From positions 1-29,045 of IMG/VR virus record IMGVR_UViG_2579778652_000007: a stretch of 29,045 nucleotides of DNA; one strand, 5' to 3'. Origin of the DNA: a virus. Lineage: Duplodnaviria > Heunggongvirae > Uroviricota > Caudoviricetes. Of the stretch, positions 3,154 to 4,426 are shown in pieces. A program made the translations under genes and the position numbers. The first letter of the stretch is position 1, and every line of letters starts with the position of its first letter. The notes under the pieces are model-generated. The model ran no database searches. It was not told where the DNA came from and saw only the letters and a list, made by a program, of their open reading frames with translations.

Positions 3154-3455
3154 TGCAACGGAAACTAACTAAGCGTAATAAAAATTGGTTGAGCGACATG
3201 CTGAAAAAAGCCAATCGCAACCATATGTACCTCAACGACTGGCTATCAATTAAAGGTAATCTCAGTGATGCAAAAATGATCGACAGACATGTTGCGCGCT
3301 ATGGTGTTTCACTTGTCTTAGAAAAGGCTGAATTAGTATTTTCGGAATATTATTCCATTCCGCAAATTAGCTCCAAAGGAAAAATATGTGGCTATGTGCT
3401 CAAACATAAAAGCAAGCTGGATGAGCTTTTAGTCAGGGAAAAGGAGACGCAATGA
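3153..3455 (+). CDS. Hypothetical protein downstream of ban (dbn-like position)
   Basis: 100 aa from ATG 3153 overlapping ban stop (TGATG); basic N-terminus; no recognisable motif. Confidence 0.6.
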   Translation: MQRKLTKRNKNWLSDMLKKANRNHMYLNDWLSIKGNLSDAKMIDRHVARYGVSLVLEKAELVFSEYYSIPQISSKGKICGYVLKHKSKLDELLVREKETQ

Positions 3456-4426
3456 ACATCCTGATCATTGGGCGAAAATTTGAAGCTATCAGTGATGTGA
3501 AAACATATACGGAAATGTGGGCTTACAACCTGGCCTGCGCCTTTAGTGAGGCTGGGGTAACATTGCAATACCATCGTCCATATTCCCCTGGCGTCGAAAG
3601 CCCCGAGGATTATGTTGAAGCTGTGTTGACTGCTGCGACAGCATGTTCTGCGAAGGCCATTTTGGCACCAGGATTGAGGTATTTTACTACGGTACCCAGG
3701 GAAATAGGCATGCAACTGTGTCGCCGATTCTCTGGATGGGTAGCCCAGGTATATGACGGTTCTATGCTGGATTCGGCACCAGTCGATATTACTTTTACTG
3801 TCCGCGATGATACCTGGCGGTACCTGGATAATCCCGGTCGGTTAGAACGTCATAATCGCTTTAACAAACATGTTGGATGGGCAGCGAATCAGGAGCTGTT
3901 CCATCTGGAAACCAAAACGGACGATGTTCTGCGTATTTTTGTAGACCACGCTGCATTTGATGTTAGTGGTTTTGATCACTCCTTAAGTATCCTTATGAAC
4001 CTTCAGCGTCTGACCGTTCCGTATGAGGCCAGAACGTTGACTGATGACGGATTGGTTACCATTGATCCGGGGAATATTTCGGTAACTCCATACAGGCGGA
4101 CGCCGGTGCCAGCAACCGAATTTGCAGCTGAATTGCGTAAGAGTGACGTTTTTATCGTTACGCATCCCGAAAGCCTTGGATTAACTGTACTTGAGGCGGC
4201 AATGTGCGGGGCGTTGGTATTAACGCCTCCCGATTGCCTTCCGCCAGATCGCCTGGCTTTGGTGAACCATATGGTTATCAAGTCGCGGATTGATTGGGAT
4301 GAGGTTATTGCTCGCGTTGATCGCGTGAAAAATGCTGAAAAGGTCCAGTGTCACACCTGGTCGGCAATTGCGGAAAAGATGCTTGAGACGTTTATCACGC
4401 AGAAACCGTCGTGCGGTAACGGATAA
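3452..4426 (+). CDS. Putative GT-B fold glycosyltransferase (GT4-like) as last gene of the helicase operon
   Basis: 324 aa; strong RBS AAGGAGA; ATG overlaps upstream stop (ATGA); N-terminal MNILIIGRKF Rossmann start and C-terminal FIVTHPESLGLTVLEAAMCGALVL containing an E-x7-E motif. Confidence 0.6.
   Translation: MNILIIGRKFEAISDVKTYTEMWAYNLACAFSEAGVTLQYHRPYSPGVESPEDYVEAVLTAATACSAKAILAPGLRYFTTVPREIGMQLCRRFSGWVAQVYDGSMLDSAPVDITFTVRDDTWRYLDNPGRLERHNRFNKHVGWAANQELFHLETKTDDVLRIFVDHAAFDVSGFDHSLSILMNLQRLTVPYEARTLTDDGLVTIDPGNISVTPYRRTPVPATEFAAELRKSDVFIVTHPESLGLTVLEAAMCGALVLTPPDCLPPDRLALVNHMVIKSRIDWDEVIARVDRVKNAEKVQCHTWSAIAEKMLETFITQKPSCGNG

What the first reader, a model, noticed from the sequence alone, without database searches (positions are those of the whole stretch)
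3452..4426. GT-B glycosyltransferase-like gene translationally coupled to the ban helicase operon
A 324-aa ORF with a Rossmann-type N-terminus and an E-x7-E-containing C-terminal motif (HPESLGLTVLEAAMCGALVL) is the last gene of the tRNA-ban operon, just before a bidirectional terminator. An early-operon glycosyltransferase next to the replicative helicase could indicate DNA or protein modification on induction, possibly anti-restriction.
Basis: partly seen in the sequence, partly recalled or inferred. Interest (0 to 1): 0.55.

Follow-up and report, generated by a model that had tools for sequence, protein, structure and literature searches.

The report
Phage P1 dbn glycosyltransferase gene
This ORF is the already-annotated phage P1 gene dbn, a real sugar-transferring enzyme, and comparison with other phages suggests it works with three other P1 sugar-transferase genes (pmgO, pmgP, pmgQ) to build a glycan, not with the DNA helicase next to it.

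Summary
The ORF at 3452-4426 is real. It is the P1 gene dbn (99% nucleotide identity), which the P1 record already annotates as 'function unknown, possible glycosyltransferase'.

The proposed link to the helicase, DNA modification and anti-restriction is not supported:
- Published in-frame dbn deletions plaque normally and keep the wild-type restriction phenotype on EcoA, EcoB and EcoK.
- Outside close P1 relatives, dbn homologs were never found next to a helicase.
- In 14 unrelated phage contigs (P2-like, lambdoid, large aquatic phages) the homolog sits within 2.5 kb of a PmgQ-like GT8-type enzyme, and often beside PmgO/PmgP-like sialyl/Kdo-transferase-like enzymes.
- All three partners are encoded 6-8.5 kb downstream in this window.
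- One metagenomic protein is a PmgO-Dbn fusion.
- Bacterial homologs lie in ABC-transporter capsule loci.

Dbn is therefore most likely one step in a dispersed, non-essential glycan-assembly set. The target is unresolved: virion proteins or the host envelope.

In this window a 100-codon inserted ORF lies between ban and dbn.

The gene is known. The cassette link is a modest new lead.

The parts
3452..4426 (+). dbn: 324-aa GT-B-fold, GT4-like glycosyltransferase (P1 gp078 orthologue)
4163..4222 (+). HPESLGLTVLEAAMCGALVL: the E-x7-E nucleotide-sugar-binding/catalytic motif (E240, E248)
   Evidence: T237, H238, E240, S241, G243, E248 and G253 are invariant in 59 homologs. The Pfam PF00534 match covers residues 221-307.
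3153..3455 (+). Inserted 100-codon ORF between ban and dbn (function unknown). Its start overlaps the ban stop and its stop overlaps the dbn start.
   Evidence: Alignment with P1 and RCS47 shows a ~275-nt insertion. GC is 39% against ~49% in the flanks. phrog_12809 E 1.4e-46. No DNA match in the phage collection. Present in 52 of 438 matching P1-like plasmids.
1783..3153 (+). ban, DnaB-type replicative helicase, upstream gene of the operon
   Evidence: Pfam DnaB_C E 1e-107 and DnaB E 3e-35; P1 annotation.
1427..1502 (+). tRNA with anticodon CAT (P1 trnI, tRNA-Ile2 by the P1 annotation)
   Evidence: ARAGORN; P1 record.
4447..4473 (.). Bidirectional terminator-like hairpin between convergent dbn and gene 5
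   Evidence: 11-bp stem and 5-nt loop; -17.6 and -18.1 kcal/mol on the two strands.
10361..11023 (+). pmgO: MptE-like / GT42 sialyltransferase-like protein, inferred partner of Dbn
   Evidence: phrog_4603 'alpha-2,3-sialyltransferase' E 4e-74. Pfam MptE-like E 6e-5, sub-threshold. Profile to Cst-II E ~0.01. Homologs flank Dbn homologs in L008, L011, L015, L108 and L177. PmgO-Dbn fusion P0108.
10921..11547 (+). pmgP: second MptE-like protein, inferred partner
   Evidence: phrog_2111 E 4e-132, weak phrog_4603 and weak Pfam MptE-like. 51-56% identical homologs lie next to Dbn homologs in L008 and L015, and one 65% identical to the L008 protein lies in L177.
12218..12919 (+). pmgQ: GT8-type (glycogenin-like, DxD) GT-A glycosyltransferase, the universal neighbour of Dbn homologs in phages
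   Evidence: phrog_1962 'glycosyltransferase' E 1e-127. Invariant D79 and D81 in the DLDT motif. Profile to the GT8 enzyme 6mw5 E 2.6e-7, then 5gvv and glycogenin. Within 2.5 kb of the Dbn homolog in all 14 non-P1 phage loci.
4473..5105 (-). Gene 5 (baseplate hub), first gene of the convergent tail/baseplate block that separates dbn from pmgO/P/Q. Context, not part of the enzyme set.
   Evidence: ORF; P1 annotation.

Best explanation
The ORF is P1 dbn. It encodes a soluble, cytoplasmic, nucleotide-sugar-dependent glycosyltransferase with a GT-B fold and a GT4-type (presumably retaining) E-x7-E active site.

Shown: the identity of the gene, the fold, conservation of the catalytic motif, purifying selection, and dispensability for plaque formation.

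Inferred from conserved gene neighbourhood and domain fusions: Dbn is not a partner of the Ban helicase. It is one step of a multi-enzyme glycan-assembly set that also includes PmgQ (GT8-type GT-A) and PmgO/PmgP (MptE-like, sialyl/Kdo-transferase-like). In P2-like and lambdoid phages these genes form one overlapping cassette. In P1 the set is split by the inverted baseplate/tail block. Both halves are annotated as under the C1 repressor in the P1 record, so they should be switched on together at induction. The family appears related to serotype-specific transferases of ABC-transporter (kps-type) capsule loci. The acceptor-side N-domain carries residues invariant in all 59 aligned homologs (D102, W143, D165, H166, D175), and at least one of these (P0026) comes from a bacterial capsule locus. 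Dbn therefore most probably adds a sugar to another sugar made by a partner enzyme, using a host nucleotide sugar.

Speculative: the final carrier of the glycan. My ranking is phage virion proteins (about 0.35), a host envelope glycolipid such as LPS core or capsule (about 0.3), and DNA or another target (0.1 or less).

The confidence of 0.6 refers to the claim 'active glycosyltransferase that functions with PmgO/P/Q in glycan assembly and not with Ban'.
For: Identity of the gene: 99% nt identity and the same flanks as P1 dbn.

Fold and catalytic motif:
- AF2 pLDDT 94.6.
- BFVD top hit is a Tupanvirus glycosyltransferase, TM 0.8.
- E240 and E248 are invariant.

Maintained by selection: 54 of 55 alleles intact, 81 synonymous to 50 non-synonymous variant codons.

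Cassette:
- All-vs-all BLAST of neighbourhoods found three partner families, and all three have homologs in this window, namely pmgO, pmgP and pmgQ.
- A PmgQ-like gene lies adjacent to or within 2.5 kb of the Dbn homolog in L004, L006, L008, L010, L011, L015, L101-L108 and L177.
- Contiguous overlapping order PmgO-PmgP-Dbn-PmgQ in the P2-like L008. In the lambdoid L177 the order is PmgO-PmgP-(extra DxD protein)-Dbn-PmgQ, just upstream of terminase.
- Fusion proteins: P0108 is PmgO-like plus Dbn-like, and P0189 is Dbn-like plus the extra GT-A-like domain.

Partner identities.

Bacterial members lie in capsule loci, each next to an MptE-like gene:
- L013 with an ABC ATPase, a KpsF-like gene, KdsA and KdsB.
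- L017 with a Wzz-like gene, an ABC-2 permease and an ABC ATPase.
- L178 with Capsule_synth (KpsC/S-type), an ABC-2 permease and ATPase, and Poly_export.

Other cassette members in aquatic phages are sugar-modifying enzymes: FkbM-type methyltransferase, sulfotransferase, pyruvyl transferase and cytidylyltransferase/cupin.

C1 operators and promoters are annotated upstream of both ban and pmgL/pmgN in P1. C1-operator-like sites occur in the window at 6 positions against 0.14 expected.
Against: - No biochemical activity, donor or acceptor is known for any family member.
- Single deletions of dbn, pmgO, pmgP and pmgQ give no plaque or restriction phenotype, so nothing yet shows that they act together.
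- In P1 the genes are 6-8.5 kb apart and in different operons.
- PmgO/PmgP assignments rest on sub-threshold matches (Pfam E 6e-5 and 3e-4, below the gathering score; PDB profile E ~0.01).
- The window protein itself falls just under the Pfam PF00534 gathering score (25.1 against 26.4 bits).
- Two recent P1 cryo-EM papers do not contain the words glycan or glycosyl, and the main text of the P1 virion proteome paper has no word beginning 'glycos'. This is weak evidence against abundant virion glycosylation.
- P7 carries a premature stop at codon 23 of its copy, so the gene can be lost.
Confidence: 0.6

Rival explanations
1. Host-envelope remodelling. Dbn with PmgO/P/Q modifies a lipid-linked host glycan (LPS core, the P1 receptor, or a capsule) in the infected or induced cell. 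This could block superinfection, stop progeny being lost on cell debris, or change serotype. This rival shares the cassette inference with the best explanation and differs only in the target.
For: - Bacterial family members are capsule-locus enzymes that act on lipid-linked glycans.
- The enzyme classes in the set (Kdo/sialyl-transferase-like, GT4, GT8) are, from general knowledge of LPS biosynthesis, the classes that build enterobacterial LPS core (WaaZ/WaaA, WaaG, WaaO/R/J).
- In the P2-like L008 the cassette sits after the portal gene, next to a KAP NTPase. In the lambdoid L177 it sits between Q/DinI and terminase. Both are typical accessory-gene sites.
- PHROGs files PmgQ under 'moron, auxiliary metabolic gene and host takeover'.
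- No glycan is mentioned in the P1 virion structure papers searched.
Against: - In P1 both operons are annotated as C1-repressed, so the genes should be silent in the lysogen.
- The large aquatic phage contigs that carry the richest cassettes (127-281 kb, with RecA-like and terminase genes) look lytic, where conversion of the host surface makes less sense.
- The PmgQ profile matches glycogenin-like and protein-glycan GT8 enzymes and no LPS-type GT8 structure was reported.
- No PADLOC defence model matches.
Confidence: 0.3
2. Dbn glycosylates phage DNA (or a replisome protein) early after induction, is functionally tied to the Ban helicase, and protects against restriction.
For: - dbn is co-transcribed and translationally chained with ban in P1-like elements.
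Against: - The dbn deletion keeps the wild-type restriction phenotype on EcoA, EcoB and EcoK and plaques normally.
- DNA glycosylation needs a hydroxylated or hydroxymethylated base. No such pathway gene appears near dbn or near any homolog examined. From general knowledge, P1 DNA is known only to be methylated.
- The ban adjacency is restricted to close P1 relatives.
- Homologs occur in bacterial capsule loci.
Confidence: 0.05
3. Dbn is a stand-alone accessory enzyme, or a decaying passenger gene, with no functional tie to PmgO/P/Q. The shared neighbourhoods only reflect glycosyltransferase genes clustering in accessory regions.
For: - No phenotype for the deletion.
- The P7 copy has a nonsense codon at position 23.
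- The genes are unlinked in P1.
- Glycosyltransferases are common in phage accessory regions.
Against: - Purifying selection and 54 of 55 intact alleles.
- Invariant catalytic residues.
- The same specific partner families, not just any glycosyltransferase, recur in P2-like, lambdoid, siphovirus-like and large aquatic phage contigs with overlapping reading frames.
- PmgO-Dbn and Dbn-GT-A fusions exist.
Confidence: 0.1

Closest known systems
Phage P1 dbn (P1_gp078; 'glt' in P7; 'putative glycosyltransferase, Dbn' in RCS47)
   Same: Same gene. 99% nt identity to P1 and 97.4% to P7, the same downstream flank (gene 5), and the same upstream ban operon.
   Different: - This window has a 100-codon ORF inserted between ban and dbn.
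- The P1 record starts dbn 8 codons further upstream. That start is not supported by the family alignment, where most members begin at the MNILIIG-equivalent Met.
CAZy GT4-type retaining GT-B glycosyltransferases (PimA, BshA, GlgM, sucrose-phosphate synthase, WaaG)
   Different: - Shorter than typical members (324 aa).
- 8-15% identity to solved structures.
- The family profile finds only 421 cluster representatives among 1.84 billion proteins and does not merge with mainstream GT4.
- The Pfam score is just below threshold.
- Donor, acceptor and stereochemistry are unknown.
Serotype-specific transferases of ABC-transporter-dependent (kps/group-2-type) capsule loci
   Same: True sequence homologs (33-40% identity) sit in such loci next to an MptE-like gene and, in one case, KdsA/KdsB.
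   Different: The phage copies have no transporter or export genes nearby, and none of the bacterial homologs is characterised either.
Mycobacteriophage virion glycosylation genes (Freeman et al. 2023, as summarised in PMC12619734) and giant-virus capsid/fibril glycosylation
   Same: Phage-encoded sets of several glycosyltransferases plus methyltransferases, sometimes inside the structural gene block (L011 lies between capsid/connector and tail genes). The best viral structural match is a Tupanvirus glycosyltransferase.
   Different: I found no evidence that P1 virions carry glycans. Sequence families were not compared directly, so the resemblance is in organisation only.
Phage DNA glycosyltransferases (T4 alpha-glucosyltransferase; phage HY126 glycosyltransferase)
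   Different: - Lower structural similarity than to sugar- and lipid-acting GT4 enzymes.
- No base-hydroxylation pathway nearby.
- The dbn deletion has no restriction phenotype.

Membership tests
P1 dbn orthologue group | High sequence identity and conserved position between ban and baseplate gene 5 | tested here: met
   99% nt identity to NC_005856 72683-73731. In all P1-like loci fetched except one (gap 1440 nt), dbn follows ban with a gap of 24-26 nt, or ~300 nt where the insert is present.
GT-B fold glycosyltransferases | Two Rossmann-like beta/alpha/beta domains with the active site in the cleft | tested here: met
GT4-type (Glycos_transf_1) enzymes | E-x7-E motif in the C-terminal domain, conserved across the family | tested here: met
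   E240 and E248 are invariant in 59 sequences down to 28% identity, within the conserved block FxVTHPESxGLxxLE.
GT4-type (Glycos_transf_1) enzymes | Pfam PF00534 match above the gathering score | tested here: inconclusive
   25.1 bits against a cut-off of 26.4, E 1.5e-5, C-domain only. The 98%-identical cluster P0001 carries a precomputed PF00534 hit and the NCBI name 'glycosyltransferase family 4 protein'.
GT4-type (Glycos_transf_1) enzymes | Retaining transfer from a nucleotide sugar | not testable with these tools
   Needs an enzyme assay and product NMR or MS.
Phage DNA glycosyltransferases | A co-encoded pathway that makes a hydroxylated or hydroxymethylated base as acceptor | tested here: not met
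   No thymidylate-synthase-like or hydroxylase family was recorded in any of the neighbourhoods examined. Only neighbourhoods were scanned, not whole genomes.
Phage DNA glycosyltransferases | Loss of the gene increases sensitivity to restriction | tested here: not met
   Published result: all knockouts other than the six that gave no viable phage showed the parental EOP on EcoA, EcoB and EcoK hosts, and dbn is in the knockout list but not among the five genes the paper calls essential (PMC9024508). Type II-IV systems were not tested.
Multi-glycosyltransferase cassette (Dbn + PmgQ +/- PmgO/PmgP), defined here | Co-occurrence of the same partner families next to the Dbn homolog in unrelated phages | tested here: met
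   PmgQ-like within 2.5 kb in all 14 non-P1 phage loci. PmgO/P-like in 5 of them. All three are present in this window. PmgO-Dbn fusion P0108.
Virion glycosylation systems | Glycan attached to capsid or tail proteins, dependent on the phage glycosyltransferases | not testable with these tools
   Needs glycoproteomics. The two P1 cryo-EM papers searched do not contain the words glycan or glycosyl, and the main text of the virion proteome paper has no word beginning 'glycos'.
Known anti-phage defence systems (PADLOC) | Match to a defence-system protein model | tested here: not met
   No hit for Dbn, the inserted ORF, PmgP or PmgQ. Only chance-level hits for PmgO and Ppp.

The most novel reading that the evidence does not exclude
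P1 and many unrelated phages (P2-like, lambdoid, siphovirus-like and large aquatic phages) share a mobile cassette of 3-5 enzymes related to kps-type capsule loci: Dbn (GT4-like), PmgQ (GT8-like), PmgO/PmgP (sialyl/Kdo-transferase-like), plus optional methyl-, sulfo- and pyruvyl-transferases. The cassette builds a defined glycan during lytic growth, either on virion proteins or on the host envelope. Four P1 genes would then be glycan-assembly enzymes: dbn, long listed as of unknown function, and pmgO, pmgP and pmgQ, long listed as 'putative morphogenetic'. P1, a workhorse coliphage, would have an undetected glycosylation pathway.
Probability: 0.45. Interest if true: 0.6.

Novelty: already known. 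Interest (0 to 1): 0.33.

Why it matters
The finding as stated, a GT-B-like gene after ban, is not new. The P1 genome record already says 'possible glycosyltransferase', and the gene has been deleted without effect on plaquing or on type I restriction.

What the re-analysis adds is a testable direction. dbn should be studied together with pmgO, pmgP and pmgQ, not with ban. If the four genes make one glycan, that could explain why single knockouts on laboratory E. coli K-12 are silent. It would also open virion or host-surface glycosylation in a genetically tractable Gram-negative phage. I found no paper in the searchable library that describes such a system or links these four genes.

Tried and rejected
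- Direct sequence search of Dbn against PDB chains gave nothing significant (best E 0.26). The family profile gave only a motif-level hit to an Actinobacillus glucosyltransferase (E 0.002). The fold had to come from the AF2 model.
- NCBIfam gave no usable hit.
- The simple terminator scan missed the dbn/gene 5 hairpin, so I folded it directly.
- The first viral-contig scan returned only near-identical P1-like loci. I repeated it with a sub-alignment of distant members to obtain 8 divergent loci.
- The genome-contig scan gave only 4 loci.
- The afdb50 fold library was unavailable.
- The Lobocka 2004 P1 genome paper and the Freeman 2023 virion-glycosylation paper are not held. Statements about them rest on the GenBank annotation and on a citing paper.
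- Literature searches for dbn or pmgO/P/Q with glycosyltransferase found no functional study.
- PADLOC gave no defence-system match.
- I considered that the inserted 100-codon ORF might belong to the enzyme set. It has no homolog next to any distant Dbn homolog, so I rejected that.
- I considered Ppp, the phosphatase between pmgP and pmgQ, as a cassette member. It is absent from the cassettes of other phages.
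Full report
**What the window is.** The region matches P1-like phages and phage-plasmids at 97-99% identity. The gene order is tciA, tciB/C, tRNA(CAT), ban, dbn, then the convergent baseplate/tail genes 5, 6, 24, 7, 25 and 26, followed by pmgL to pmgS. This is the order in the P1 reference record.

**The observation.** The ORF at 3452-4426 (+) is 324 aa and starts with ATG 7 nt after AAGGAG.
- It is the P1 gene dbn, 99.0% identical in DNA to NC_005856 72683-73731.
- The intergenic 46 nt before gene 5 contain an 11-bp GC-rich hairpin (4447-4473). It is flanked by an A-run and a T-run and folds equally well on both strands.
- The tRNA at 1427-1502 and the DnaB-type helicase at 1783-3153 are confirmed.

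A 100-codon ORF (3153-3455) sits between ban and dbn.
- Its ATG overlaps the ban stop (TGATG) and its stop overlaps the dbn ATG (ATGA).
- Alignment with P1 and RCS47 shows a ~275-nt insertion starting just after the point where P1 annotates the dbn start.
- It has 39% GC against ~49% in the flanks and belongs to phrog_12809, function unknown.
- It is absent at DNA level from the phage collection, but present in 52 of 438 matching P1-like plasmids.

So dbn is chained to the ban operon through this inserted gene.

**Is it a glycosyltransferase?** Sequence evidence alone is thin.
- Pfam Glycos_transf_1 matches residues 221-307 at E 1.5e-5 and 25.1 bits, just under the gathering score of 26.4.
- NCBIfam and direct PDB sequence searches give nothing.
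- PHROGs places it in phrog_2518, function unknown.

A search of 5.8 billion protein clusters found 74 relatives down to 28% identity. In an alignment of 59 of them, 14 columns are invariant: D102, W143, A144, D165, H166, D175, F234, T237, H238, E240, S241, G243, E248 and G253.

AlphaFold2 on this alignment gave a confident model (pLDDT 94.6, pTM 0.90). It shows two beta/alpha/beta domains and a final helix.

The best viral model match is a Tupanvirus glycosyltransferase (TM ~0.8).

The fold claim is confirmed. Membership in the GT4 sequence family is likely but borderline by Pfam's own threshold.

An exhaustive profile search of 1.84 billion representatives found only 421 proteins at E<=0.001, and 198 at E<=1e-30. 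Dbn therefore belongs to a small, sharply bounded clade and does not blend into the very large GT4 superfamily.

**Is the gene maintained?** In the P1-like loci fetched, 54 of 55 distinct alleles are intact. Variant codons are 81 synonymous to 50 non-synonymous. My rough estimate from that is dN/dS of about 0.2. The P7 record has a nonsense codon at position 23, which explains its shorter 'glt' annotation.

**What is already known.**
- The P1 record annotates dbn as 'function unknown, possible glycosyltransferase'. P7 calls it glt, 'putative glycosyltransferase'. RCS47 calls it 'putative glycosyltransferase, Dbn', and RefSeq names it 'glycosyltransferase family 4 protein'.
- CRISPRi scores dbn non-essential (PMC10695390).
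- Gonzales et al. 2022 made in-frame deletions of 29 genes, including dbn, pmgO, pmgP, pmgQ and ppp. [quoted passage not shown] The identification as a putative glycosyltransferase is therefore not new. The anti-restriction idea has been tested for type I systems with a negative result.

**Following the neighbours.** The Ban link does not hold outside close P1 relatives.
- In P1-like loci dbn follows ban at 24-26 nt, or ~300 nt with the insert, with one exception at 1440 nt.
- In a Citrobacter P1-like plasmid (Dbn 57% identical) no Ban match was found in the 13-kb locus. dbn lies 5 kb downstream of pmgP-pmgQ-pmgS on the same strand.

For more distant homologs I fetched contigs and compared all neighbouring ORFs with each other. 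Three partner families recur, and all three have homologs in this window.
- A ~220-235-aa family corresponds to the ORF at 12218-12919, which is P1 pmgQ.
- Two ~200-aa families correspond to 10361-11023 (pmgO) and 10921-11547 (pmgP).

A PmgQ-like gene lies adjacent to or within 2.5 kb of the Dbn homolog in all 14 distinct non-P1 phage loci: L004, L006, L008, L010, L011, L015, L101-L104, L106-L108 and L177.

In a P2-like contig the order is PmgO-PmgP-Dbn-PmgQ with overlapping reading frames, directly after the portal gene (L008). In a lambdoid contig it is PmgO-PmgP-(a 189-aa DxD protein)-Dbn-PmgQ, immediately upstream of small and large terminase, portal and capsid (L177). In a siphovirus-like contig the genes lie between capsid/connector and head-closure/tail genes, together with a sulfotransferase and an FkbM-type methyltransferase (L011).

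Large aquatic phage contigs (127-281 kb) carry Dbn-PmgQ inside a larger cluster. It includes GT8-like, GT47-like, pyruvyl-transferase-like, cytidylyltransferase/cupin and methyltransferase genes.

Among the distant representatives, several are fusions:
- P0108 is a PmgO-like domain (E 1e-23 to the window's PmgO) fused to a Dbn-like domain (E 2e-31).
- P0189 is Dbn-like fused to the 189-aa DxD family.
- By inspection of their sequences, other fusions carry what look like methyltransferase and alpha/beta-hydrolase domains.

**What the partners are.**
- PmgQ is phrog_1962, 'glycosyltransferase'. It has an invariant DLDT (DxD) motif. As a profile it matches GT8 enzymes: the Skp1 alpha-galactosyltransferase 6mw5 at E 2.6e-7, then a family-8 glycosyltransferase (5gvv) and glycogenin.
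- PmgO is phrog_4603, 'alpha-2,3-sialyltransferase'. PmgP is phrog_2111.
- Both PmgO and PmgP give weak, sub-threshold Pfam MptE-like hits. A joint profile weakly matches the GT42 sialyltransferase Cst-II (E ~0.01) and 5mu5, which from my own knowledge is the flagellin glycosyltransferase Maf (E 0.23). These two assignments are therefore tentative.

**Bacterial relatives.** Dbn homologs with 33-40% identity occur in ABC-transporter-dependent polysaccharide loci, always next to an MptE-like gene and a conserved ~320-aa protein.
- One contig also has an ABC ATPase, a KpsF-like isomerase, KdsA and a CMP-Kdo-synthetase-like gene (L013).
- A Brucella (Ochrobactrum) pseudogrignonensis locus has a Wzz-like gene, an ABC-2 permease, an ABC ATPase and further GT1 genes (L017).
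- One contig has KpsC/S-type Capsule_synth, an ABC-2 permease and ATPase, and a Poly_export protein (L178).

This places the family among capsule repeat-unit transferases. It hints that the MptE-like partner handles a CMP-activated sugar such as Kdo. That last point is inference only.

**Most likely mechanism.** Dbn is an active GT4-like transferase that adds a sugar from a host nucleotide sugar to a sugar acceptor produced by a partner enzyme. It would be one step of a PmgO/PmgP/Dbn/PmgQ glycan-assembly set.

In P1 the set is split by the inverted baseplate/tail block. Per the P1 record, both halves have C1 operators and sigma-70 promoters upstream, and the pmgL operon also has a late promoter. 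C1-operator-like sites are clearly enriched in the window, 6 against 0.14 expected. The genes should therefore be derepressed together at induction.

The carrier of the glycan is not resolved.
- Virion glycosylation is favoured by the cassettes in structural modules and in apparently lytic large phages. It resembles the organisation described for mycobacteriophages (summarised in PMC12619734) and giant viruses.
- Host-envelope remodelling is favoured by the capsule-locus ancestry, by the accessory-gene positions in P2-like and lambdoid contigs, and by the absence of the words glycan or glycosyl from the P1 virion structure papers searched.
- DNA glycosylation is the least likely. No base-hydroxylation pathway is nearby, the structural rank is lower, there is no restriction phenotype, and homologs sit in capsule loci.

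**Verdict.** The gene and its putative enzyme class were already annotated, and the proposed DNA/anti-restriction role is contradicted by published knockouts and by comparative context. The useful new point is the conserved association, including a gene fusion, of Dbn with the PmgO, PmgP and PmgQ families. I found no paper in the searchable library that makes this link. Interest is modest: a known, non-essential gene, with a concrete and testable hypothesis for four uncharacterised P1 genes.

Noticed in passing
window 3153-3455 (+): A 100-codon ORF of unknown function (phrog_12809) is inserted between ban and dbn. It has 39% GC and takes over the start that overlaps the ban stop. It is absent from P1, P7 and RCS47, and from the whole phage DNA collection, but is present in 52 of 438 matching P1-like plasmids and about a sixth of the P1-like viral contigs fetched.
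   Followed up: partly
L001 3977-4000 (P1 NC_005856 72659-72682) versus window 3452: The P1 reference annotates dbn as 332 aa, starting at the ATG that overlaps the ban stop. Most homologs in the family alignment start at the Met equivalent to MNILIIG, which has its own Shine-Dalgarno sequence. The reference start is therefore probably 8 codons too far upstream.
   Followed up: partly
L002 4001-4975 (P7 AF503408 'glt'): The P7 copy of dbn has a premature stop at codon 23 (W23 to stop). This explains its shortened 'glt' annotation. It is either a pseudogene or a sequencing error.
   Followed up: partly
proteins P0108, P0189, P0157, P0161, P0177/P0182/P0186 and similar: Dbn-family domains occur fused to a PmgO-like domain and to a DxD GT-A-like domain (both confirmed by BLAST). 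Others appear, by inspection of the sequence, to be fused to a methyltransferase and to an alpha/beta-hydrolase-like domain. About ten proteins of 520-630 aa carry a ~190-aa C-terminal domain of unknown function. P0147 is a tandem duplication.
   Followed up: partly
window 10361-11023 and 10921-11547: The pmgO and pmgP ORFs overlap by about 100 nt as called. The same long overlap is seen in the P2-like homolog pair (L008 4346-4939 and 4840-5466). Either the pmgP start is further downstream or the overlap is conserved.
   Followed up: no
window 9297-9313, 12921-12937, 12970-12986, 15062-15078, 24961-24977, 28268-28284: Six matches to the P1 C1 repressor operator consensus (up to 3 mismatches), against 0.14 expected by chance. 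The first four are at the positions of Op82, Op86a/b and Op88 in P1. The annotated Op83 upstream of pmgN was not recovered at this stringency.
   Followed up: partly
window 13000-29045: Only 67-81% of this stretch is covered by the best P1-like phage records, in several pieces. Parts of it match hundreds of lambdoid Stx-converting phage records. It seems to be a mosaic accessory region; annotated names under the matches include polynucleotide kinase/phosphatase, HNH endonuclease, DUF551 and EaA.
   Followed up: no
L008 7644-11708 (-): In the P2-like contig the four-gene glycosyltransferase cassette lies next to a 1354-aa KAP-family NTPase, between the portal gene and the replication gene A. 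This looks like an accessory or defence hotspot.
   Followed up: no
window 1427-1502: ARAGORN calls this tRNA-Met (CAT). The P1 record annotates the orthologue as tRNA-Ile2 (ileX-like), which would need lysidine modification.
   Followed up: no
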